Below, one piece after another: positions 2,822 through 11,717 of a stretch of DNA of 64,000 nt. The position numbers were made by a program, and so were the translations under genes. This DNA is from a virus (lineage: Duplodnaviria > Heunggongvirae > Uroviricota > Caudoviricetes), in IMG/VR virus record IMGVR_UViG_2657245091_000008. One strand, given 5' to 3'. Under the pieces are notes generated by a model. It was not told the origin of the DNA and made no database searches. It worked only from the letters and a program-made list of their open reading frames with translations. Positions within the stretch are counted from its first letter, which is position 1. Every line of letters begins with the position of its first letter.

Positions 2822-3798
2822 TTGTTCGGCACTCCCAATATCATTCGTGTTGTGTAGCCTACGCGGTCCTCAAAGTGCGCAACATTTTTTACTATCAGCT
2901 TACGGGGCATTGATTCATCAATGCGGTTTTCCTGGTCATAGCGGTATACGATAATCTCTATTACCATCCCCGGTTTTATATCAGGATTGCCTGCGACTTC
3001 TATATCCATTTTGGGGACGAGAGACAGCTGCATATTGCGAAGAGTTTCCATATCAGAGTCGGATATATAACGCACTGGGAGTGAGCTATCGCCATATTCG
3101 ACGTAGCCATCGGTCATGGAATACCCAACAAAACGATATTGATTCTTTGCTGTTGTCGCATGTTCCTGTTGGAGTAGGCGCATTTTGGACAAAGTGTATT
3201 CTGCTTTAGGGTTATTCCCCTCGTAGGTAAATGATGGCGTTTGCTTCATCAGATCAGCCAGGGTGTAAAAGTTAAATTCCCCCCGGCATACCCAACATAA
3301 TGCACCTTTGTCTCGCGCTATCTCCGAAAGCATTTTTGACGGTTTGTCACCGGCATTCAGATGATATGTAACTGCGCGTTTTAGCACGCTGCTGGTAATT
3401 TTAAGCTTGCCGGAATATGCCTTGAATATAGCGTCTGGTGTTTTGTTGGTATGTAAATTTGTGCGCGGGGAGGGGATCTTAAACCTGCGCACGTCTTCAC
3501 TGACAGCAATAACGGTAACAACATCACCAGCCAGCATTGCAGACGTAACAAAGAAATCTGTTTTAAAAGTGCCTGCATTACCGTTTGGATCGCCCATTTC
3601 AGCCACCAGCGATGCACCGTATTTGGCTTTCCAGTCATCAATTACGGTGCCGGTAGCGTCATGAATTTCCAGTTTTAGCAAAGGGGCTTTGAGGCTGGTT
3701 TTTTCTACATATACTGCGGTAAAAATCCAGTCTCGTGGCACTTTGTTATCGTTAATGAGCACTGACTGTAGAAAATATTGTTGTAACTCCTGGGCCAC
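2818..3798 (-). CDS. Putative baseplate hub-like protein (by position upstream of spike)
   Basis: 326-aa ORF translationally coupled to the spike gene; hub-then-spike order as in Mu 44-45; no motif recognised. Confidence 0.3.
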   Translation of the reverse strand: MAQELQQYFLQSVLINDNKVPRDWIFTAVYVEKTSLKAPLLKLEIHDATGTVIDDWKAKYGASLVAEMGDPNGNAGTFKTDFFVTSAMLAGDVVTVIAVSEDVRRFKIPSPRTNLHTNKTPDAIFKAYSGKLKITSSVLKRAVTYHLNAGDKPSKMLSEIARDKGALCWVCRGEFNFYTLADLMKQTPSFTYEGNNPKAEYTLSKMRLLQQEHATTAKNQYRFVGYSMTDGYVEYGDSSLPVRYISDSDMETLRNMQLSLVPKMDIEVAGNPDIKPGMVIEIIVYRYDQENRIDESMPRKLIVKNVAHFEDRVGYTTRMILGVPNK

Positions 3799-3801
3799 TT
3801 A

Positions 3802-4569
3802 TCACCCCATAGATATCGAGGTTTCGGTAATAATACGTTTTGCGTCCAACTCCCATGCTGTGATCACGTCTGCAATCACACTTATCGGCGCTTGTGTGGC
3901 ATAAATACGCTCTTCTCCAATTGGTGCTGAAACATCCGTAAAGCCGACTTCTTTGGCATCCTGTATCGAGCAAATCAACGGGACCGGGACACGAACAAGG
4001 TGAGTGGTGGCTTCAAATTGTGTACCTGTCATCAGGCGAAGCCGTGCGCCCAGTGAATTACACATCAGACTCATGGTCGCTTTATCAGTTGCCATTAACG
4101 TAACGTCATACGTCAGAATGGCCTGGGTGTATTCCAGTTCTGCTAAAGGCATTCCGGTATCCGGTTCGCAAAAACTGGCTACTTTTTTGCGGTCAATCTG
4201 CTGATCATCGTTGATATAATTGATATCCATAGTGCGTGAGATATTGACCAGGGGGAGAGCATCCCGGTTAATGTTCTGGTTTTCAGGTTTTCTCCCTTGC
4301 CCGGCATTTGCGCGACGAACTGCTTTAAGAAACTCGATCGCATTGTCGAAACGGGCCACATAGACACGCTCTGCTGGTGGACGATTCAGGAATGACGCAA
4401 AGCGTTTTTCTTCCGGCGCGGGGGCCACCAGTAAGATATCAGAAAAAATGTTGCTGATTAGCGTCGCAAACGCGTTATCCACGCTTTCAAAGCCCGTGGT
4501 CTGGAATTTTCCTGTGCGTGAGGTTTGCCATTCACCTGTTCGCGCCAGGAGGGTTTTATTTGAAGTCAT
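3802..4569 (-). CDS. Hypothetical protein (tail/baseplate module?)
   Basis: 255-aa ORF in same operon, stop/start overlap with neighbours. Confidence 0.3.
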   Translation of the reverse strand: MTSNKTLLARTGEWQTSRTGKFQTTGFESVDNAFATLISNIFSDILLVAPAPEEKRFASFLNRPPAERVYVARFDNAIEFLKAVRRANAGQGRKPENQNINRDALPLVNISRTMDINYINDDQQIDRKKVASFCEPDTGMPLAELEYTQAILTYDVTLMATDKATMSLMCNSLGARLRLMTGTQFEATTHLVRVPVPLICSIQDAKEVGFTDVSAPIGEERIYATQAPISVIADVITAWELDAKRIITETSISMG

Positions 4570-5369
4570 TCGATCACTCCGTTTTGAGTCGTATCAAAAT
4601 TCCTGGCAGGTATGCAGTAGTAAAGCGAACCAACATGCTGTGTGCCGTAGCTAAAAATACGGTGCACGTACCACCAGCGGCGGGCTACGCCGTTTACCAT
4701 CTCTTCATTCCATTCAAGAATTGATCCGACGGGGACGTTATTTGCTGCAATACGCAGAATCAGAACATCATCGGTTAAGCCATCCTGCTCACCGTCTGCG
4801 TCAATTGCATGGAAAGAGTCACGCCCGTCCGGGTTATCCAGCACATAAACGATTTCAGGTTCCTGGTAAGTCAGTTCGCGCTGGTTGTTATCCAGTTCAG
4901 TGAATGACTCTTCTCCTGTTTCGTCGCTGACTACCCCATATGTGCCAACATCTGGTCGATATAAGAGAGCCTGAAACGCGTCTGGGCTGGATTCAATAAT
5001 CAGCATCCAGTCTGCGCGGATTTGGTCGTTAAAGGCTTTATGCCCGTTATAGCGTGCTTTTAACTGTGGAGTCGGTTCTCTGCCAGCCAGGGAAGATGGA
5101 AGTATGGCTATATCTGATTCGCCAGCATCCGGAGTAAGGCCACCGTTGCTATCAGCAAAATTATCATGGCTATCAGCTTTGGCGGCGGGTTGCTCTTCCA
5201 GAATGCTGAATGAATCCGAACCTGTATTGCCATGTTCCGGCGCGCCTCCTGCATTCGCTTCAATCGGCGCTGGCGTTTCTCTCTGCGTGCTGTCATGTTC
5301 TGACTCCTTACTTGCCAGGTTTGCATCGTCAGCAAACCATTCGTCAAAACGGCCCATAAGCATCCTCAA
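4566..5369 (-). CDS. Hypothetical acidic protein (tail/baseplate module?)
   Basis: 267-aa ORF, first gene of operon; Asp/Glu-rich N-terminal half. Confidence 0.3.
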   Translation of the reverse strand: MRMLMGRFDEWFADDANLASKESEHDSTQRETPAPIEANAGGAPEHGNTGSDSFSILEEQPAAKADSHDNFADSNGGLTPDAGESDIAILPSSLAGREPTPQLKARYNGHKAFNDQIRADWMLIIESSPDAFQALLYRPDVGTYGVVSDETGEESFTELDNNQRELTYQEPEIVYVLDNPDGRDSFHAIDADGEQDGLTDDVLILRIAANNVPVGSILEWNEEMVNGVARRWWYVHRIFSYGTQHVGSLYYCIPARNFDTTQNGVIE

Positions 5370-5519
5370 AGGTCGATCTGTCAGGTATCGAAAGGAAGAT
5401 TTTCGGGAGATTGTGATTTTGGATGAAGGAGGGGGAATTCATAAAATGCACTTGCGCACAGTGCAACGGTGCGCTATAGTTATGGCATTCGGTAATCATC
5501 ACGGAGGATCAAATGACTA

Positions 5520-5822
5520 ATGACCAAAAAAATTAACATAAAGGATTTCAGGGATGCGTGGCTTGATGATTTTTTTGAATTTTCAACACCACATAGAAAG
5601 ATACCTCCTGATATTCATATGACATTGTCACGGAAGTTGGACATTATCAATGCCGCAACTACCTGTAAGGATTTAAGATCACCACCAGGTAATCGGTATG
5701 AGGAACTGTCAGGGAAGCTAAATGGCTATTCATCAGTAAGGGTGAATAAGCAATATAGGTTAATTTTTAAGTGGGTTAACGGAAAGGCCGAGGACTTGTA
5801 TCTCGACCCTCACAAATACTAA
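5520..5822 (+). CDS. higB: Type II toxin HigB (plasmid maintenance killer protein family)
   Basis: 100 aa; C-terminal YRLIFKWVNGKAEDLYLDPHKY typical of HigB/RelE-fold killer proteins; directly upstream of HTH antitoxin; GGAGGA RBS. Confidence 0.8.
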   Translation: MTKKINIKDFRDAWLDDFFEFSTPHRKIPPDIHMTLSRKLDIINAATTCKDLRSPPGNRYEELSGKLNGYSSVRVNKQYRLIFKWVNGKAEDLYLDPHKY

Positions 5823-5892
5823 AACAGATACCCGGTTACGGACCGGGTTCTGACCAGAGTCCACTTAATACGCACGCTAGTAAGGGCAAAAA

Positions 5893-6231
5893 ATGAAACA
5901 GGCAACCAGAAAACCGACGACCGTAGGTGATATCCTGCTGTACGAATACCTGGAGCCGTTAGAGCTGAAGATCAACGAGTTGGCAGAAATACTTCATGTT
6001 CATCGTAACACCGTAAGTGCTCTTGTTAATAATAATCGTAAGCTAACGATGGATATGGCATATCGCCTGGCAAAAGCATTCGATACTTCTGTAGATTTTT
6101 GGATTAATCTTCAGACCGCAGTAGACCTGTGGGAAGTCGAAAATGATATGCGCGTTCAGGAAGAGTTAAGTCGTATCAATACTGCTGAAAAATTTATTTC
6201 TCAGCGGAACCTGAATAAAAAAGCAGCCTGA
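5893..6231 (+). CDS. higA: Antitoxin HigA (XRE-family HTH, N-terminal HTH type)
   Basis: 112 aa; HTH segment LKINELAEILHVHRNTVSALVNNNRKLTMDMAYRLAKAF typical of HigA/VapI antidote proteins. Confidence 0.8.
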   Translation: MKQATRKPTTVGDILLYEYLEPLELKINELAEILHVHRNTVSALVNNNRKLTMDMAYRLAKAFDTSVDFWINLQTAVDLWEVENDMRVQEELSRINTAEKFISQRNLNKKAA

Positions 6232-6248
6232 TATAGTAAAACACATAC

Positions 6249-6280
6249 AAAAAGCCCACTTAGCAAGTGGGCTTTCCTTT
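6249..6280. terminator. Bidirectional intrinsic terminator-like hairpin after higA
   Basis: Stem AGCCCACT-loop-AGTGGGCT flanked by A-run upstream and TCCTTT downstream. Confidence 0.4.
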
Positions 6281-6287
6281 GTAATTA

Positions 6288-6647
6288 ATGAACATTAAAC
6301 CTATCCGTACAGAACAAGATTATGAGGCCGCACTGCGTGCGGTCGAACCGATGTTCGATAACGAACCGGAAATGAATACTCCGGAAGGTGATTTCTTTGA
6401 GGTTATGAGTCTTCTCATTGAGGAGTACGAGAAAAAACATTACCCAATTGAGCCACCATCACCTATTGAGGCCATTAAATTCCGTATGGAACAGCAAGGG
6501 CTGACCGTGAAGGATCTGGAACCGGCGATTGGTAAGTCAAATCGTGTTTACGAAGTGCTAAATGGGACACGAAATTTGACGTTACCTATGATTCGCCGTT
6601 TACATTCCCAGTTTGGCATTCCTCTTGAAAGCTTGGTTGGTATTTGA
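6288..6647 (+). CDS. HigA-like transcriptional regulator with C-terminal HTH (E. coli HigA / COG5499 type)
   Basis: 119 aa; C-terminal LTVKDLEPAIGKSNRVYEVLNGTRNLTLPMIRRLHSQFGIPLESL aligns with the HTH region of E. coli HigA; no cognate toxin immediately upstream. Confidence 0.6.
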   Translation: MNIKPIRTEQDYEAALRAVEPMFDNEPEMNTPEGDFFEVMSLLIEEYEKKHYPIEPPSPIEAIKFRMEQQGLTVKDLEPAIGKSNRVYEVLNGTRNLTLPMIRRLHSQFGIPLESLVGI

Positions 6648-6709
6648 GTTTGGCGGTCTGGATGACCGCTATTTTCATAAAATAGATATTAGAAATCACG
6701 GTAGTTTAT

Positions 6710-7438
6710 ATGAATACAGATTCATCAACAGAAAAATTGACTGAAAATGATCTAATCAAAGTATCTTTTGGAGATGCCATAAAAGACAAGCTATTTAATA
6801 AAGTGTTTGCATATATATTAATTTCTTTTCTAATTATTAATTGGAAAGATATACTAATATTGATGAAGTCAAAGGATGATATCCTATATACTTTATCTGT
6901 AACATTTGTTGGAGGTAAGATTCCTCTAGTTTATGAAGGCGTTTTGTCTCCTTGGCTTTATCATTTTTGCTTGCCATTTATTTTTGGAATTATTGCATCA
7001 ATTGCAGCTCCGATTGTCACTCTTTGCGTATCAAAGCTAACAAGTAAAATATATACAGAGATAAGGTATTTGGATGCCGACATGGATCAAAATAAAAGAA
7101 AGGCGTTGCAAATAAAAGAGACTGAAATAATAAAAAGCATTAATGATACACAATTCAACAAAAGAATTATGGATGAAAATAAAAATGAACTTGAGAGATT
7201 GCTTAGGCAGCAAAAAGAGATTATGGCGGCAATAAAGTTATTATATGATGATGTTGGAGTTATCATTGAGCTTTTTAAAAGTAGAGGGGTTGGTATTGAC
7301 TCCCCAGAAAAGTTATATGATTTTGTAATGGCAATAAAGAAGACTTCGCTTTATAATGGCGATCATGATTTTAATAAATTGGTTGCTGATATTTCAAATT
7401 TATTTGATAAAACGGAAATTGATTTTTCAAAAAGATGA
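6710..7438 (+). CDS. Hypothetical two-TM membrane protein with C-terminal coiled coil (candidate effector)
   Basis: 242 aa; two hydrophobic segments (FAYILISFLIINW, LYHFCLPFIFGIIASIAAPIVTLCV) then K/E-rich coiled coil; about 30 percent GC by eye. Confidence 0.5.
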   Translation: MNTDSSTEKLTENDLIKVSFGDAIKDKLFNKVFAYILISFLIINWKDILILMKSKDDILYTLSVTFVGGKIPLVYEGVLSPWLYHFCLPFIFGIIASIAAPIVTLCVSKLTSKIYTEIRYLDADMDQNKRKALQIKETEIIKSINDTQFNKRIMDENKNELERLLRQQKEIMAAIKLLYDDVGVIIELFKSRGVGIDSPEKLYDFVMAIKKTSLYNGDHDFNKLVADISNLFDKTEIDFSKR

Positions 7439-7471
7439 AAGCCTAGCCTAGGCAGCTAGGCTATGTGTGGT

Positions 7472-8665
7472 TTATGCTTTTTTTACATACTCCATGAACA
7501 TTTTTTCAGCTTGTGCTGGTGGTGTTCCAGCCATGACAAGCGCATCAATGAACGCCTGCTTCTTCAGTGCGAACTGATCGGCAAGGCGTTGCTGAAGCTC
7601 CTTGTTTTTCTGTTTCTCACGTTGCAAGGCCGCTTCTTTTGCTGCCGCCCGTTTTTTCTGTGCATCTGACAACTTTCTGGCCTTGGTCAATTGGTCACGT
7701 AGTTTGTCGATCTTGCCGTTGTCCTTTGCCAGTTTTGTACTTAAAGCTGCCTGGCGCTTCTGATAGAGCCTCCATTCGCGTTTGGCGGCTTCAACGTTCG
7801 TTTTACTGCTACGATTGCGATTAAACTCCTTCTCGTCTTCTTTTGAGAAGTGTTTGGTTGTACGGCGGCGATCGTCACCAAATGCAATTTGCGTTGCAGC
7901 CTTTTGTAGCGCACGAGCAATACTCATTTGCCAACTGGCGGACTGTAACCGCGTCATTGAGTGGATCACGTGTTTACAGGCGACGCCTTGCAGCTTCGGG
8001 TTGCGAACTTTTGGATAGGCGTATTCTTTTGGCGGTGCCAGGGCAAAGTTACCCGCAGTGGCGATGTAACGATACCAGTATTGATGACGACCACAGTCAC
8101 AATCGAAAGACACTCGCCCGGCGCACAGTGATTTAGTGATTTTGAGAGCTGATTTATCGTCTTCTGCGATGTCATCAACCATCTGATCCCATTCTTCAAA
8201 GCGTATCCGGACGATATGGTGCTGGTGGACGGATATATCCGATGCTTCTACGCGGATATTAATCACATTGTGGCGAAGAGATACGGGTGTAGCTCTTTTG
8301 ATACCAGATCCGTCATCCACGGCGTTATTTGCACGCTTAATATCGATTGCCTGGCTGGATGCCACCAGCTGGGCGTATGTGATGCCAGCCGTCTTGCTGT
8401 CATATTTTTCGCGCGTTTTACTCCGTAGCTTTTCGAAACCTTTCAGGTCGTCTCGCGTGAAGAACGTGCCGCCTTTTTTCTTCCCTAACTTGAGAATATC
8501 TTCGGCGGATTTGTTCCTCAGTCTACCTGGCGTCAGCGTCCGGTGAGCTTGTCGGCGCTTACGGGTTTGTTCTTTCCTGATAAGGTCGAATAAACGCGTG
8601 AAGTCCTTAGAGGACAGGCCGTCAGTGATATAGCGCCCGTCCTGGTTTTTCAGGAAATCAGGCAT
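7472..8665 (-). CDS. Hypothetical protein with SWIM-type zinc finger (CxC...CxH) and Lys-rich coiled-coil C-terminus
   Basis: 397 aa; FDCDCGRHQ...GVACKHVIH matches the SWIM CxCxnCxH pattern. Confidence 0.5.
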   Translation of the reverse strand: MPDFLKNQDGRYITDGLSSKDFTRLFDLIRKEQTRKRRQAHRTLTPGRLRNKSAEDILKLGKKKGGTFFTRDDLKGFEKLRSKTREKYDSKTAGITYAQLVASSQAIDIKRANNAVDDGSGIKRATPVSLRHNVINIRVEASDISVHQHHIVRIRFEEWDQMVDDIAEDDKSALKITKSLCAGRVSFDCDCGRHQYWYRYIATAGNFALAPPKEYAYPKVRNPKLQGVACKHVIHSMTRLQSASWQMSIARALQKAATQIAFGDDRRRTTKHFSKEDEKEFNRNRSSKTNVEAAKREWRLYQKRQAALSTKLAKDNGKIDKLRDQLTKARKLSDAQKKRAAAKEAALQREKQKNKELQQRLADQFALKKQAFIDALVMAGTPPAQAEKMFMEYVKKA

Positions 8666-8987
8666 TTTCTATCTCCGGTTCCGCGCTCGCGTAATCACGG
8701 ATCTTGTTCCTCAGCCATGCCACATCAGGAAGAGTTAACGTGGTCCCGGCGGGCATTTCTTCCATTTCTGACTCATGGCCCACCAGCACCCGGAATACCC
8801 AGCGCAAATCTGCATTGCCATACGCCCTGTAGGCTGCAAGGTCTGAACGATATACTTCATCAATCTTTATCGTGTACTGGAAATTATCAGAGTGATACTC
8901 CGATACCCGCTTAATCATTTCCTGGTGAAACAGCGCACGAAAAATATCGTCTTCAATGTACCTATCGTCGAGTCTGCTATAGCCCAT
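8658..8987 (-). CDS. Hypothetical protein
   Basis: 109-aa ORF overlapping the start of the SWIM protein gene by 8 bp (operon). Confidence 0.45.
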   Translation of the reverse strand: MGYSRLDDRYIEDDIFRALFHQEMIKRVSEYHSDNFQYTIKIDEVYRSDLAAYRAYGNADLRWVFRVLVGHESEMEEMPAGTTLTLPDVAWLRNKIRDYASAEPEIENA

Positions 8988-9180
8988 AACAAAGCCTCTC
9001 AGTCATAACCTGGGGGAAACTGTATGCAGGGTGTGAAATGCGAGAAACAGACAGGCCACCAGTTCAGGGGGATGTGGTTCATAAATCCCCTCACTGGTGA
9101 CAAGTGACTTTCATTAATCTTTATGCGGGGGCCAGCTTCCTTTGCTGGCATTAGATTAAAAATTAAACGGAGTGAATGAC

Positions 9181-9315
9181 ATGGATGTTATCTTCGAATT
9201 ATTAATGCTAATTGATCTGTTTATGAACGCTTCATTGACCACTCAAATACTCGCGTCAATATTTTTGTTACTCTTCTACCTGGTATTGAGGGAGTTAACA
9301 AAGCTACTAATGTGA
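9181..9315 (+). CDS. Small hydrophobic peptide (44 aa), candidate membrane toxin or immunity peptide
   Basis: ATG at 9181 preceded by GGAGTG; translation MDVIFELLMLIDLFMNASLTTQILASIFLLLFYLVLRELTKLLM; AT-rich; below ORF-track size cutoff. Confidence 0.3.
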   Translation: MDVIFELLMLIDLFMNASLTTQILASIFLLLFYLVLRELTKLLM

Positions 9316-9969
9316 TCAAAGTATCACGGTATCTTCATCAACTTCTTTCCCAGCCAGTGACTTTGGCTGGGAGGTGCCTGCTTTAACTTTTTCATGCCCA
9401 ATAATGGAAAGGAACGAAGCGAGTATGCCTGTTTTTTGCTCTTTCTCGACTGTACCGGTCATCTGCTCTACGTAATCCGCACTGGCAACGTTGTGGTATA
9501 CGGTCGCGTAGCAACACAGTATCATCAGAATATGCTCCGGCCTGATATCCTGCCAGTTCACCCTGTAGACTTCTTCTCCGTTACCGTTGTATTCGGTATC
9601 AACGATAGAGTCGGGGATTTCGAAAGCACCTTTGTTATTTTGCGGCAGGGATAATAGCTTCTGGAGTTTTAACTCTCTGTATCTTTCCATCCCGACGATG
9701 ATTGCTGCTCTGCCATCGGCATGACGGGTCTTGAGAGTCACCTGGCTTGCTCCGGTGCCAGCGGAGATCGTTGGCGTAATTTCGTCTACCAGTACCTTAA
9801 ATTTGCTTTTCCGCAGGGCTGCTATAGCTGGAGGAATTTTTTGCTTTTGCTCCAATGCTGACGCGGGAAGGGGTTTTACTTCGTTAATAATGAGAGCGCC
9901 GTCTTTCAGTATTGCAGTGAGCATTTGAGGCTTGCTGGTGGTCAGGCTGAATATTGCGATCTTTTCCAT
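9316..9969 (-). CDS. Hypothetical protein
   Basis: ATG at 9969 (MEKIAIF) preceded by GGAGGAAGG RBS; track ORF extends further to 10011. Confidence 0.5.
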   Translation of the reverse strand: MEKIAIFSLTTSKPQMLTAILKDGALIINEVKPLPASALEQKQKIPPAIAALRKSKFKVLVDEITPTISAGTGASQVTLKTRHADGRAAIIVGMERYRELKLQKLLSLPQNNKGAFEIPDSIVDTEYNGNGEEVYRVNWQDIRPEHILMILCCYATVYHNVASADYVEQMTGTVEKEQKTGILASFLSIIGHEKVKAGTSQPKSLAGKEVDEDTVIL

Positions 9970-9996
9970 TGTCCTTCCTCCACGGATGACGGATAC

Positions 9997-10020
9997 AAAA
10001 AAAGGCCGCACATGGCGGCC
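9997..10020 (-). terminator. Intrinsic terminator-like hairpin (minus strand)
   Basis: On minus strand GGCCGC-CATGT-GCGGCC followed by TTTTTTT; sits directly upstream of the RBS of 9316-9969. Confidence 0.45.
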
Positions 10021-10314
10021 TGCTTTGGCGTTATGACTCCCTACCGCGCTTCGGCTGAAAGTTAATCGTCAAAAGAACCTTCAACGGGAGCCGTTAGCGC
10101 GATGGATTATGTGCAGTTTGTGATTTCAAAAATAGTGTCAACCACTTTTTTTGGATTTTATTTTTTGACAGAAATTTGGCCTAAATCATGTTGATTTGGC
10201 TGATTATTTTTATAACATAAAAGTCATTTTGATTGCATGAAGGACGGTGCAGTGAAGTTAAGGGTTTTAGGGACCGCGCTCGCGGCTAAGATGGTAAAGT
10301 ATGGAGTTAATGAA

Positions 10315-11157
10315 ATGTTTTTTATAAAAAATGGAAAAAGATGTTCCTCAACAATACTTGCTACTGTTGTTGCTCTCTCTGTTCCCACATTTGCCTTTGC
10401 TTATGATTTTAGCAAAATTGACTGCAATGCCCCTAAAACCAGACAGATGTTAATCGATGATTATAATGAACTGCTGAAGGACGATCAGGAAGCAATCTCT
10501 GTAATTGATGCTTATAATCAGATCAATGAGATAAGAGAAAAAAATAAGCTCCAATGCCTGGGAACGTATGAATTCTCAGATGGAAGTGCGCTTAGGGTTA
10601 GATATAAGTTATATTTAAATAGCCTCGGCACACCCATATATGAATTTGCTCCAGTTGAGGAATTAACGCAAGATGACGTAAGTGCATCTATTCATAATTC
10701 CCCTGCAACTCCTGCAACTACAGCGAGCATGGCTGGACATGATAAAAAAAATAATGGTGAAACGTATGCCTGTAAGGTGGCTGTAACTTACAAGGGGGAG
10801 CGTTCTAACTATATGGGGGATTCCGGAACATGGGATCGTGTGATTACTGACTATGGCACTTATTTTTCATGGGATTTGCCACGCGGGAACCGAGGTAACA
10901 GCACAGGTCAGGATGCTTTTAGTGGCATGGACGAATCAAAGCCTGTATTAGAAAATCAGCTAGTGAGAAAGGAAATTGAAAAAGATGGTAGCGTGGTTGA
11001 TGAGTTTAGGACAGAAGTGAGTTATGGAGACAAACAACCGGTACATAAGTTTGTATATGCCCGTAGAATAAAACCTACAGGAACGAGAGAATATTATGTC
11101 ACTGATTTGACGGACAAGCGGGCATTTATGTTTCTGAATTGCCAGCGAGATTCGTAA
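10315..11157 (+). CDS. Secreted/periplasmic hypothetical protein
   Basis: Signal-peptide-like N-terminus MFFIKNGKRCSSTILATVVALSVPTFAFA from ATG 10315 (GGAG RBS); track ORF starts at 10237; AT-rich. Confidence 0.55.
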   Translation: MFFIKNGKRCSSTILATVVALSVPTFAFAYDFSKIDCNAPKTRQMLIDDYNELLKDDQEAISVIDAYNQINEIREKNKLQCLGTYEFSDGSALRVRYKLYLNSLGTPIYEFAPVEELTQDDVSASIHNSPATPATTASMAGHDKKNNGETYACKVAVTYKGERSNYMGDSGTWDRVITDYGTYFSWDLPRGNRGNSTGQDAFSGMDESKPVLENQLVRKEIEKDGSVVDEFRTEVSYGDKQPVHKFVYARRIKPTGTREYYVTDLTDKRAFMFLNCQRDS

Positions 11158-11163
11158 TTGATA

Positions 11164-11196
11164 AAGCAGGCTTAACGACTAAGCCTGCTTTTTGGA
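11164..11196 (+). terminator. Intrinsic terminator
   Basis: Perfect 10-bp stem AAGCAGGCTT/AAGCCTGCTT followed by TTTTTGGATTTT. Confidence 0.6.
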
Positions 11197-11198
11197 TT

Positions 11199-11549
11199 TT
11201 ACTCGGTAATAGTTTTGCAGTTGTTTTGGTTTAAGGCCAATCCAAGTTTGCTGGCGGCTAACTCATTTTCTGTGTGAGAACCAGCAAATACAAATCCTTG
11301 TTTTATCTTATTTACGGTGAAATATTTATTGTATATAAATGCCCAGACAAGTGAAGCTACCCAAGGACCAATTCCTGCAGTGAGAAATGCCAAGATTAGC
11401 ATCACAACGAACACCCCGATGAAAGTTATAAAGTCTTTCCTGAACAAAGCCGGGAAGGCACCAAAAAAGAACGTAGTCCAGGAGAATCCATAAAAGCCTG
11501 AGATGGACTCGCCTGTCCGAGGGTTTTCTAAGTTAATTTTAGTAGCCAA
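11199..11549 (-). CDS. Hypothetical inner-membrane protein
   Basis: 116 aa with two hydrophobic helices. Confidence 0.5.
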   Translation of the reverse strand: MATKINLENPRTGESISGFYGFSWTTFFFGAFPALFRKDFITFIGVFVVMLILAFLTAGIGPWVASLVWAFIYNKYFTVNKIKQGFVFAGSHTENELAASKLGLALNQNNCKTITE

Positions 11550-11717
11550 AGTTATTCATCCTTTAACGTAAAAAAACAAATAATTATAAAGCTGTGTGAG
11601 TGCGCTATTTTACTAATCTACACTATGTTATGCAATTTATTGGTATCAGGCCCCGGCTAGGCCGGGGCAAAAGCTATTAACTAACGATCCAGTCCATAGC
11701 AATAACATCCTCTGGAG

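What the first reader, a model, noticed from the sequence alone, without database searches (positions are those of the whole stretch)
5370..7438. Low-GC island: higB-higA plus an extra HigA-like regulator followed by a two-TM coiled-coil protein
After a canonical higB/higA pair and a terminator, a second antitoxin-like gene of a different HigA family (C-terminal HTH, E. coli HigA type) has no toxin upstream and is followed by a very AT-rich gene for a 242-aa protein with two N-terminal TM helices and a cytoplasmic coiled coil. Antitoxin-like regulator plus membrane effector is a common layout for abortive-infection and toxin-antitoxin systems. The composition suggests recent horizontal acquisition.
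Basis: partly seen in the sequence, partly recalled or inferred. Interest (0 to 1): 0.62.

Follow-up and report, generated by a model that had tools for sequence, protein, structure and literature searches.

The report
TA cassette, orphan antitoxin, unknown membrane protein
A small AT-rich island in a D6-type phage-plasmid holds one working-looking higBA toxin-antitoxin pair, a leftover antitoxin whose own toxin gene was swapped out, and an unrelated, fast-diversifying membrane protein of unknown function, probably a prophage defence or exclusion gene, so the "regulator plus membrane toxin" pairing is most likely an accident of adjacency.

Summary
Window 5520-7438 carries four + strand genes, wedged between - strand tail genes of a phage D6-like plasmid prophage (99.7% identical to D6 orf70-73).

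- **Genes:** higB (PF05015), higA (TIGR02607), a stable terminator hairpin, a 119-aa E. coli K-12-type HigA (orf72), then a 242-aa protein with two hydrophobic segments and a long helix (orf73, GC 29.5%).
- **orf72 is an orphan antitoxin.** The proposed orf72-orf73 toxin-antitoxin or abortive-infection pair is not supported. In sister elements, 97-100% identical orf72 copies sit 3 nt after a PF09907 HigB. In the window that toxin gene was replaced by the PF05015 higBA cassette. orf72 lost its Shine-Dalgarno sequence, and orphan copies are independently inactivated in three lineages.
- **orf73 stands on its own.** Its family is rare and unannotated (phrog_8191; 56 clusters among 1.8 billion representatives). 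It occurs without any HigA in other P1-like elements at the same locus, in P2-like prophages, next to OLD-like ATPase/methylase genes, and in a chromosome.
- **TA cassettes swap around it.** The upstream toxin-antitoxin (TA) cassettes differ between elements (HigBA, TacAT, ParE-HTH), while the orf73 lineage follows the locus. Its alleles are 33-60% identical between otherwise 96-100% identical elements.
- **Function:** inferred only. A prophage-encoded membrane exclusion or defence protein is my best guess.

The parts
4566..5369 (-). Left flank: tail gene, homologue of P1 gene 7 (D6 orf69)
   Evidence: phrog_1906 at E 1.6e-116. The D6 record annotates it as 'similar to P1 gene 7'. In P1 itself gene 25 and gene 7 are 3 nt apart with nothing between them.
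5420..6280 (+). Swapped-in higBA cassette: leader, higB, higA and terminator. It replaces the PF09907 higB found in sister elements.
   Evidence: Window versus L008/L030: homology ends at 5419 and resumes at 6281.
5520..5822 (+). higB, a RelE-fold toxin (100 aa)
   Evidence: PF05015 at E 4.4e-35. phrog_3066 'toxin of TA system' at E 3.7e-37.
5893..6231 (+). higA, the cognate antitoxin with an N-terminal HTH (112 aa)
   Evidence: TIGR02607 antidote_HigA at E 7.9e-30, above its cut-off. HTH_3 at residues 16-70.
6249..6277 (.). Strong hairpin, terminator-like on both strands, that closes the higBA cassette
   Evidence: 13-bp stem. Folds at -17.9 kcal/mol, z -4.58.
6288..6647 (+). orf72: orphan E. 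coli K-12-type HigA antitoxin (N-terminal domain plus C-terminal HTH, 119 aa). Its cognate PF09907 higB is missing.
   Evidence: PDB 5IFG/5YCL HigA at E 8e-8 over residues 6-112. PADLOC PD-Lambda-2_B positions 1-119 of 402 at E 4e-43. It is 97.5% identical to the L008 copy, which follows a PF09907 HigB. The GGAG ribosome-binding site seen in L008 is absent here.
6651..6671 (+). Hairpin between orf72 and orf73, conserved in sister elements
   Evidence: -16.4 kcal/mol, z -4.37. Conserved in L008, L009, L003 and L029.
6710..7438 (+). orf73: membrane / long-helix protein of an unannotated family (242 aa). It has a conserved N-terminal membrane part (motif NW[QK]xILILxKSKxDI; invariant N44, P89, G93, P101) and a hypervariable stalk and C-terminal region.
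   Evidence: phrog_8191 at E 6e-115, function unknown. No Pfam, NCBIfam or PADLOC hit. Family alignment. AlphaFold2 model. GC 29.5%. Allele breakpoint near 6882-6891.
7440..7463 (.). Weak hairpin between the convergent orf73 and gene 25 homologue
   Evidence: Folding z is only -1.95.
7472..8665 (-). Right flank: tail gene, homologue of P1 gene 25 (D6 orf74)
   Evidence: phrog_1722 at E 4e-197. D6 annotation. 57% identical to P1 gp25.

Best explanation
The island is three separate things stacked in one insertion site of a D6-like P1-family phage-plasmid. In P1 itself this site is the tight junction between tail genes 25 and 7.

1. **5520-6231, a complete higBA module.** It is a PF05015 toxin with a TIGR02607 antitoxin and its own terminator. 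It most likely acts as a plasmid-addiction module and may also contribute to phage defence.
2. **6288-6647 (orf72), an orphan antitoxin.** It is the HigA of a different, E. coli K-12-type/PD-lambda-2-like HigBA module. Its PF09907 toxin gene was replaced, exactly up to the toxin's stop codon, by the cassette in (1). orf72 now lies behind a terminator without its former ribosome-binding site. It is dispensable, and orphan copies are decaying in several sister lineages.
3. **6710-7438 (orf73), the long-term resident of the site.** It is a single-gene, AT-rich accessory gene for an oligomer-type membrane protein: two membrane segments, a cytoplasmic helix of about 85 residues, and a small helical C-terminal domain. 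It works independently of orf72.

Toxin-antitoxin cassettes are repeatedly inserted or exchanged just upstream of orf73.

Inferred, not shown: orf73 is a prophage-expressed membrane protein that excludes or aborts infection by other phages. Its hypervariable cytoplasmic part would set specificity.
For: **Identity of the element**
- The window is 99.7% identical to phage D6 orf70-73.

**The higBA module**
- The terminator is.

**orf72 as an orphan antitoxin**
- L008, L030-32, L034 and L036 carry PF09907 HigB (PD-Lambda-2_A, E 3e-42) 3 nt upstream of a 97-100% identical orf72.
- The breakpoints are at 5419/5420 and 6280/6281.
- GGAG is present upstream of orf72 in L008 and absent in the window.
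- Orphan copies are inactivated in three independent ways. L005-type loci have a deletion leaving 66 aa; these are 9 of 22 IMG/VR loci and the commonest arrangement in the plasmid hits. L029 has a nonsense codon at position 69. L033 has a frameshift.
- All six toxin-linked copies examined are intact.

**Independence of orf73**
- It occurs alone between the gene 7 and gene 25 homologues in L038/L039.
- It occurs alone in P2-like prophages: L040, and L049/50 between the V-like and S-like genes.
- It occurs in an Enterobacter chromosome (L015).
- It occurs next to an OLD/Gabija-like ATPase plus a type II methylase (L045).
- It occurs next to a KAP-like NTPase and an HNH protein (L047).
- Different TA families lie upstream of it at one Citrobacter-type locus: HigBA, TacAT plus a HigA remnant, and ParE-HTH.
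- Histories disagree. The L007 and L013 HigB/HigA proteins are 53-54% identical while their membrane proteins are 26% identical. The L007 and L008 membrane proteins are 40% identical while their HigB proteins are 25% identical.

**Diversification and composition**
- orf73 alleles are 33-60% identical, while the flanking tail genes are 96-100% identical in D6-like loci.
- Every family member is 10-15 GC points below its surroundings, except L043/L045, which sit on an already AT-rich contig.
Against: **On function**
- No experiment or known homologue assigns a function to orf73.
- PADLOC, Pfam, NCBIfam, a PDB sequence profile and Foldseek against PDB and BFVD all gave nothing.
- A defence role therefore rests only on genomic neighbourhood, allelic diversity and composition.

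**On independence from HigBA**
- The PF09907 HigB - K-12-type HigA - membrane protein trio recurs in four backgrounds: D6-like, Enterobacter P1-like, Citrobacter-type and a Klebsiella IncFIB plasmid. A functional link between HigBA and orf73 is not excluded.

**On decay of orf72**
- Two lineages independently keep an open 66-68-aa N-terminal fragment of HigA next to the membrane gene. This could mean the fragment is used.
- Intact orphan orf72 copies still show low dN/dS (0.063). With pS of 0.15 this mostly reflects recombination with toxin-linked alleles.

**On sampling**
- Only about a dozen distinct contexts were seen, and most are in Enterobacteriaceae.
Confidence: 0.6

Rival explanations
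1. One reading: orf72 is the antitoxin or repressor and orf73 is the membrane toxin or effector of a two-gene TA/abortive-infection system.
For: The two genes are adjacent on the same strand and 62 nt apart. orf72 has an antitoxin-type architecture. The orf72-orf73 segment 6281-6882 is inherited as one block in several sister elements.
Against: - orf72's cognate toxin is a PF09907 HigB in sister elements.
- orf73 homologues exist with no HigA-like gene at all.
- orf73 homologues exist with orf72 truncated, carrying a nonsense codon or frameshifted.
- orf72 exists without orf73 in L004.
- A stable, conserved hairpin separates the two genes.
Confidence: 0.07
2. There is an ancestral three-gene system, HigB(PF09907)-HigA-membrane protein, built like PD-lambda-2. 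The membrane protein would be the accessory or sensor component needed for defence but not for toxin neutralisation. The window holds a degenerate version in which another higBA took over.
For: - The trio occurs in D6-like, Enterobacter P1-like and Citrobacter-type phage-plasmids, and moved as a block to a Klebsiella IncFIB plasmid.
- The HigB and HigA of L008 match PD-Lambda-2_A (E 3e-42) and the N-terminal 119 positions of PD-Lambda-2_B (E 7e-43).
- PD-lambda-2 needs a third gene for defence (PMC9519451).
Against: - The membrane protein and HigBA have incongruent histories.
- TacAT or ParE-HTH can occupy the HigBA position.
- The membrane protein is solitary in at least six contexts.
- A terminator-like hairpin lies between HigA and the membrane gene.
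- There is no peptidase domain, and orf73 does not match PD-Lambda-2_C.
Confidence: 0.15
3. orf72 is retained on purpose as an anti-addiction gene. As a toxin-less HigA, it would neutralise the PF09907 HigB of competing, incompatible D6-like plasmids (L008 type), so that they can be displaced without post-segregational killing. This is compatible with the best explanation for the other genes.
For: - The window's orf72 is 97.5% identical to the antitoxin that partners L008's HigB.
- Many orphan copies are still intact.
- N-terminal fragments stay open in two lineages. From my own recollection of the E. coli HigBA structure literature, not checked here, this is the toxin-binding half of E. coli HigA.
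- Orphan antitoxins acting as anti-addiction modules are an established concept (my own knowledge).
Against: - The ribosome-binding site is lost and a strong terminator sits 11 nt upstream.
- Three independent inactivations are seen among orphan copies.
- There are no expression data.
Confidence: 0.15
4. orf73 is a membrane protein with a role unrelated to defence, for example envelope or lysis-timing modulation or host-fitness conversion. Its diversity would reflect drift and recombination in a non-essential, AT-rich gene.
For: - There is no hit to any defence-protein model.
- The gene is truncated or lost in some elements: L004, L028, L034, and cut by IS903B in L006.
- One homologue is an ordinary-looking solitary chromosomal gene (L015).
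Against: - It repeatedly sits in accessory slots of prophages and beside defence-type genes.
- Allelic replacement is very strong next to near-identical flanks.
- It is absent from P1 and P7 and from all other deposited phages, so it is not needed for virion assembly or lysis.
Confidence: 0.25

Closest known systems
HigBA of the Rts1/Vibrio type (PF05015 HigB with TIGR02607 HigA)
   Same: Window 5520-6231 matches both family models over their full length. The toxin gene comes first and the antitoxin has an N-terminal HTH. The pair is already annotated as the addiction module of D6 and D6-like plasmids (PMC6799933).
   Different: Nothing notable. Neither its activity nor any role in phage defence has been tested.
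E. coli K-12 HigBA (YgjN/YgjM; HigA structures 5IFG and 5YCL)
   Same: orf72 aligns with E. coli HigA over nearly its whole length and shares the C-terminal HTH. In sister elements it follows a PF09907 HigB_toxin gene.
   Different: The window has no PF09907 toxin gene. orf72 is 119 aa rather than 138 aa, and similarity to E. coli HigA is modest (E 8e-8).
PD-lambda-2 anti-phage system (Vassallo et al. 2022, PMC9519451)
   Same: orf72 matches positions 1-119 of the PD-Lambda-2_B model at E 4e-43. The toxin that partners orf72 in L008 matches PD-Lambda-2_A at E 3e-42. Both loci have three genes.
   Different: orf72 has no C-terminal peptidase domain (119 aa against a 402-position model). The window has no A-type toxin. 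The third gene is an unrelated membrane protein with no PD-Lambda-2_C match. In PD-lambda-2 the B protein is the toxic component.
Caulobacter higBA-higX arrangement (PMC13384398)
   Same: This is an analogy only. There too a higBA pair of foreign origin sits directly upstream of an older, membrane-associated gene that works independently of HigBA.
   Different: There is no sequence relationship. HigX is a transcription factor, whereas orf73 has no DNA-binding domain. The host and type of element also differ.
Accessory (moron) and defence slots of temperate phages, such as the P2 Z/fun locus
   Same: orf73 homologues occupy accessory slots between conserved tail genes in P1-like and P2-like prophages. 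In L049/50 the slot lies between the V-like and S-like genes. From my own knowledge of the P2 map, this is where Z/fun sits. PMC13586616 names Z/fun as a P2 defence locus.
   Different: No member of the orf73 family has been shown to defend against anything. A recent survey found almost no recognised defence systems in D6-like elements (10.1101/2025.09.12.675607).

Membership tests
HigBA, PF05015/TIGR02607 type (window 5520-6231) | Toxin matches the HigB-like RelE-fold model | tested here: met
   PF05015 at E 4.4e-35, 120.5 bits against a cut-off of 27, covering positions 1-91 of 91.
HigBA, PF05015/TIGR02607 type (window 5520-6231) | Antitoxin matches the HigA equivalog and lies downstream of the toxin gene | tested here: met
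   TIGR02607 at 102.5 bits against a cut-off of 47.7. Gene order is higB then higA.
HigBA, PF05015/TIGR02607 type (window 5520-6231) | The toxin cleaves mRNA on the ribosome, and the antitoxin neutralises it and autoregulates the operon | not testable with these tools
   This needs toxicity, rescue and promoter assays.
E. coli K-12-type HigBA (orf72 as HigA) | HigA architecture: an N-terminal helical domain followed by a C-terminal HTH | tested here: met
   Aligned to 5IFG/5YCL over residues 6-112 at E 8e-8. HTH_3 at residues 63-115.
E. coli K-12-type HigBA (orf72 as HigA) | A cognate PF09907 HigB toxin gene immediately upstream | tested here: not met
   Upstream of orf72 in the window are a terminator and the unrelated higA. 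The feature is met in L008, L030-32, L034 and L036, which carry 97-100% identical orf72 copies.
PD-lambda-2 defence system | Component A: a HigB-like toxin directly upstream of B | tested here: not met
   The window's HigB has no PD-Lambda-2_A hit at E <= 0.1. It is also separated from orf72 by higA and a terminator.
PD-lambda-2 defence system | Component B: a HigA-like domain fused to a C-terminal peptidase | tested here: not met
   orf72 covers only model positions 1-119 of 402. The ORF stops at 119 aa.
PD-lambda-2 defence system | Component C: a third protein related to a P4 antitoxin and required for defence | tested here: not met
   orf73 gives no PADLOC hit at E <= 0.1.
   orf73 homologues occur without a HigA-like gene. 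orf72 occurs without orf73. orf72 is inactivated beside an intact orf73.
   This needs expression experiments. The natural occurrence of solitary homologues argues against strict dependence.
phrog_8191 / orf73 family (unannotated) | Full-length match, conserved membrane motif and invariant N44, P89, G93, P101 | tested here: met
   phrog_8191 at E 6e-115, covering 1-242 of 242. Family alignment A3. Profile search found 56 clusters.
Known anti-phage defence or superinfection-exclusion proteins | Sequence or fold similarity to a described defence or exclusion protein | tested here: not met
   No PADLOC hit for orf73 or its homologues, apart from coiled-coil noise. Foldseek against PDB and BFVD gave all E > 1.

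The most novel reading that the evidence does not exclude
The orf73 family is a previously unrecognised single-gene, membrane-anchored anti-phage (superinfection-exclusion or abortive-infection) protein. It would be carried in the accessory slots of P1-like phage-plasmids and P2-like prophages. Its conserved two-segment membrane module would act as the effector, and its hypervariable cytoplasmic helix and C-terminal domain would act as the specificity or sensor part. TA cassettes would be repeatedly recruited next to it.
Probability: 0.35. Interest if true: 0.55.

Novelty: new member of a known kind. Interest (0 to 1): 0.35.

Why it matters
- **A caution for annotators.** An 'antitoxin-like gene followed by a membrane protein' can be produced by cassette swapping and need not be a system. 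Here the true partner of the antitoxin can be recovered from sister elements.
- **A clean natural example of TA exchange.** A toxin gene was replaced exactly up to its stop codon. The antitoxin was left stranded and is decaying in several lineages.
- **A candidate for testing.** D6-like phage-plasmids are widespread in E. coli, Salmonella and Shigella and are reported to carry almost no recognised defence systems. The orf73 family is small, rare, strongly diversifying and completely uncharacterised. It is a cheap and well-defined candidate for a phage-exclusion test.

Tried and rejected
**Searches for a function of orf73 that found nothing**
- Pfam, NCBIfam and PADLOC scans of orf73 gave nothing.
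- Scanning all 25 family members against Pfam gave only coiled-coil noise.
- A family profile against PDB sequences gave only coiled-coil noise; the best hit was E 0.009 to EnvC-like coiled coils.
- Among 50,697 deposited phage genomes, only D6 carries a homologue.

**Structure**
- AlphaFold2 with 5 sequences gave a poor model (pLDDT 60).
- With 25 sequences the model was usable (pLDDT 77.6).
- Foldseek against PDB and BFVD gave no match below E = 1.
- The afdb50 library was not available.

**Locus scans**
- The narrower alignment found one locus.
- The metagenome scan added only one new context.

**Selection on orf72**
- I tried dN/dS to ask whether orphan orf72 copies are still under selection. 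The result was 0.063, against 0.013 for toxin-linked copies.
- With pS near 0.15, while the adjacent higBA proteins are 99-100% identical in nearly all these loci, the differences come from recombination with toxin-linked alleles. I rejected the result as uninformative.

**Ideas considered and rejected**
- orf73 as a virion or lysis gene. It is absent from P1 and P7, where genes 25 and 7 abut. It is on the opposite strand to the tail genes and is deleted in L004.
- The island as a PD-lambda-2 system. All three defining components fail the test.

**Literature**
- The D6 genome paper could not be read; it is not held.
Full report
**What the window is**

Window 5300-7500 is 99.7% identical to Escherichia phage D6 (MF356679), a P1-family plasmid prophage. 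It is 99-99.9% identical to several E. coli and Salmonella plasmids of 90-97 kb. The four + strand genes are D6 orf70-73. They lie between - strand tail genes that D6 annotates as homologues of P1 genes 7 and 25 (window 4566-5369 and 7472-8665; PHROG tail families). In P1 itself gene 25 ends 3 nt before gene 7. The island is therefore an insertion into an otherwise tight late operon.

**Check of the observation**

- **higB** (5520-5822) matches PF05015 at E 4e-35.
- **higA** (5893-6231) matches the TIGR02607 equivalog at E 8e-30.
- **A hairpin with a 13-bp stem** at 6249-6277 folds at -17.9 kcal/mol. None of 200 shuffles folds as well.
- **orf72** (6288-6647, 119 aa) has its HTH at residues 63-115. 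Its best solved relative is E. coli K-12 HigA, aligned over residues 6-112.
- **orf73** (6710-7438, 242 aa) has hydrophobic segments at 32-52 and 83-107. An AlphaFold2 model built on a 25-sequence family alignment (pLDDT 77.6) shows one helix running from 81 to 191, followed by two short helices.
- **Composition:** GC is 38%, 42%, 44% and 29.5% for the four genes. The flanking genes are 49-50% and the window is 47.5%.
- **A second stable hairpin** (6651-6671, z -4.4) lies between orf72 and orf73.

**orf72 is an orphaned antitoxin**

PADLOC places orf72 on positions 1-119 of the 402-position PD-Lambda-2_B model at E 4e-43. In the source paper that protein is a HigA-like domain fused to a peptidase, and it follows a HigB-like gene (PMC9519451).

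Sister D6-like elements carry a different layout at exactly the same locus. These are L008 from plasmid p95_MLI121 and the IMG/VR loci L030-32, L034 and L036. Each has a PF09907 HigB_toxin gene (PD-Lambda-2_A, E 3e-42), then 3 nt later an orf72 copy 97-100% identical to the window's, then a membrane-protein allele.

DNA comparison of the window with L008 gives four segments:
- homology up to 5419;
- unrelated sequence over 5420-6280;
- homology again over 6281-6882 (86%);
- divergence over the rest of orf73, then homology from 7477.

The right-hand junction falls at the stop codon of the lost toxin gene. L008 reads CTGGAGTAAATCATG, with a GGAG ribosome-binding site inside higB. The window reads CCTTTGTAATTAATG. 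orf72 therefore lost its toxin, its promoter and its ribosome-binding site in a single cassette swap, and now starts 11 nt after a strong terminator.

Orphan copies are decaying, which fits a gene no longer needed:
- The commonest arrangement in the plasmid hits is the L005 type. It accounts for 9 of 22 IMG/VR loci. It keeps only 66 codons, which are common enough to form their own PHROG, phrog_10398.
- L029 has a nonsense codon at position 69.
- L033 is frameshifted.
- All six toxin-linked copies examined are intact.

**orf73 belongs to an independent, rare family**

A word-indexed search of 5.8 billion proteins found nine clusters, all from E. coli. An exhaustive profile search of 1.84 billion representatives found 56 clusters. 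All share one architecture, a conserved motif (NW[QK]xILILxKSKxDI) and invariant N44, P89, G93 and P101. No Pfam, NCBIfam, PADLOC, PDB-sequence or Foldseek match exists beyond coiled-coil noise. The only label is phrog_8191, function unknown.

The family was found in these contexts:

| Context | Loci | What lies next to the membrane gene |
|---|---|---|
| D6-like, gene 7 / gene 25 site | L001-L003, L005, L008, L009, L016-L034, L036, L037 | PF05015 higBA plus orf72 (intact or decayed), or PF09907 higB plus orf72 |
| Enterobacter P1-like, same site | L007, L035 | PF09907 HigB plus a 139-aa HigA |
| Other P1-like, same site | L038, L039 | Nothing; the membrane gene is alone |
| Klebsiella IncFIB plasmids | L006 and about 55 records | HigB and HigA; the membrane gene is cut by IS903B |
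| Citrobacter-type phage-plasmids, between tail-tube and PmgC-like genes | L013 | HigB plus HigA |
| Same Citrobacter-type site | L010-12, L048 | TacA plus a GNAT toxin, plus a 68-aa HigA remnant |
| Same Citrobacter-type site | L014 | ParE plus an HTH protein |
| P2-like prophages | L040; L049/50 between V-like and S-like genes | No TA module |
| Defence-type neighbourhood | L045 | OLD/Gabija-like ATPase and a type II methylase |
| Enterobacter plasmid | L047 | KAP-like NTPase and an HNH protein |
| Prophage-like region | L044/46 | UmuC-like gene |
| Enterobacter chromosome | L015 | Solitary |

One D6-like clone (L004) has orf72 but no membrane gene.

**The partners do not share a history**

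- L007 and L013 have HigB and HigA proteins that are 53-54% identical, but membrane proteins that are 26% identical.
- L007 and L008 have membrane proteins that are 40% identical, but HigB proteins that are 25% identical.
- At the Citrobacter-type site the membrane proteins are 39-52% identical to one another, while the upstream TA modules belong to three unrelated families.

The membrane gene follows the locus, and the TA cassettes are exchanged next to it.

A published analogy is Caulobacter higX. It is an older, membrane-associated gene that acts independently of a foreign higBA pair inserted upstream of it (PMC13384398).

**Diversification**

In D6-like elements the tail genes, HigB and HigA are 96-100% identical to the window's. 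The membrane protein in those same elements is only 36-60% identical, with at least six alleles. The first 58 or so codons are shared at 86-95% DNA identity, and the rest is replaced. Every family member is 10-15 GC points below its surroundings, apart from L043/L045 on an already AT-rich contig.

**How it most likely works**

*Shown:*
- The higBA assignment.
- The orphan status of orf72 and the breakpoints of the swap.
- The independence and diversity of orf73.

*Inferred:*
- higBA acts as the addiction module that the literature already assumes for D6-like plasmids (PMC6799933).
- orf72 is a dispensable leftover. It could still neutralise PF09907 HigB from rival elements, an anti-addiction role that is untested.
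- orf73 is expressed from the prophage as an oligomeric inner-membrane protein that excludes or aborts other phages, with the variable cytoplasmic part setting specificity.

The last point rests only on location in accessory and defence-type slots, allelic turnover and composition. I put it at about 0.35-0.4.

**Comparison with known systems**

- The higBA pair is an ordinary member of its family.
- orf72 has the K-12 HigA architecture but fails that family's context test, because no toxin gene precedes it.
- The island fails all three PD-lambda-2 component tests, although orf72 is homologous to the N-terminal domain of PD-lambda-2 B.
- orf73 matches nothing that has been described.

**Verdict**

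The description is correct. The proposed two-gene system is most likely an artefact of adjacency. The leftover point of interest is a small, uncharacterised and strongly diversifying family of membrane proteins that deserves a simple phage-exclusion test. Overall interest is moderate to low (0.35).

Noticed in passing
window 8988-9315 (between the gene 26 homologue 8658-8987 and the mat homologue 9316-10011): This looks like a second variable slot. The window has only about 330 bp here, with small ORFs (D6 orf76/77). Sister elements L002, L003, L004 and L026 carry an extra RelE/ParE-HigA pair at the same position.
   Followed up: partly
window 5370-7471 relative to P1 (L052 3709-3713): The island lies antisense inside what is a contiguous 26-25-7-24-6 late operon in P1. 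The 6249-6277 hairpin also reads as a terminator on the - strand. How late transcription reaches gene 7 in D6-like phages is unclear; there may be a separate late promoter in 5370-5519.
   Followed up: no
L010-L012 4710-4913; L005 5989-6189: Two unrelated lineages each keep an open 66-68-aa N-terminal fragment of the K-12-type HigA, without the HTH, directly upstream of the membrane gene. In the Citrobacter-type elements the fragment sits after a tacAT cassette and is only 52% identical to the nearest intact HigA. This could be parallel decay or a retained small protein.
   Followed up: partly
L006 (Klebsiella quasipneumoniae IncFIB plasmid) 3171-5395, and about 55 Klebsiella plasmids: A HigB-HigA pair 97-99% identical to that of an Enterobacter P1-like prophage (L007) sits on large Klebsiella plasmids (conjugative in the one examined, L006). 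The membrane gene there is cut to 137 aa by IS903B. This shows transfer of the block from a phage-plasmid to ordinary plasmids.
   Followed up: partly
L053 (Cronobacter phage JK004) 19-746: Two overlapping ORFs of 103 and 139 aa have the same sizes and overlap as the PF09907 HigB / K-12-type HigA pairs seen elsewhere. They lie at a different position of a P1-like phage, near the gene 26 side. I did not scan them.
   Followed up: no
window 5447-5465: An inverted repeat, TGCACTTGCGCACAGTGCA, lies about 55 nt upstream of higB. It is a possible HigA operator. Its RNA fold is not unusual (z -1.0).
   Followed up: partly
window 10200-11600: This is another low-GC stretch (37-43%) with strong positive GC skew, downstream of the mat homologue and near the simB-like region of D6. 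I did not examine it.
   Followed up: no
L028 3811-4440; L034 4001-4444: In two D6-like loci the membrane gene itself is truncated, to 209 aa and 147 aa. Like orf72, it is dispensable for keeping the element.
   Followed up: partly
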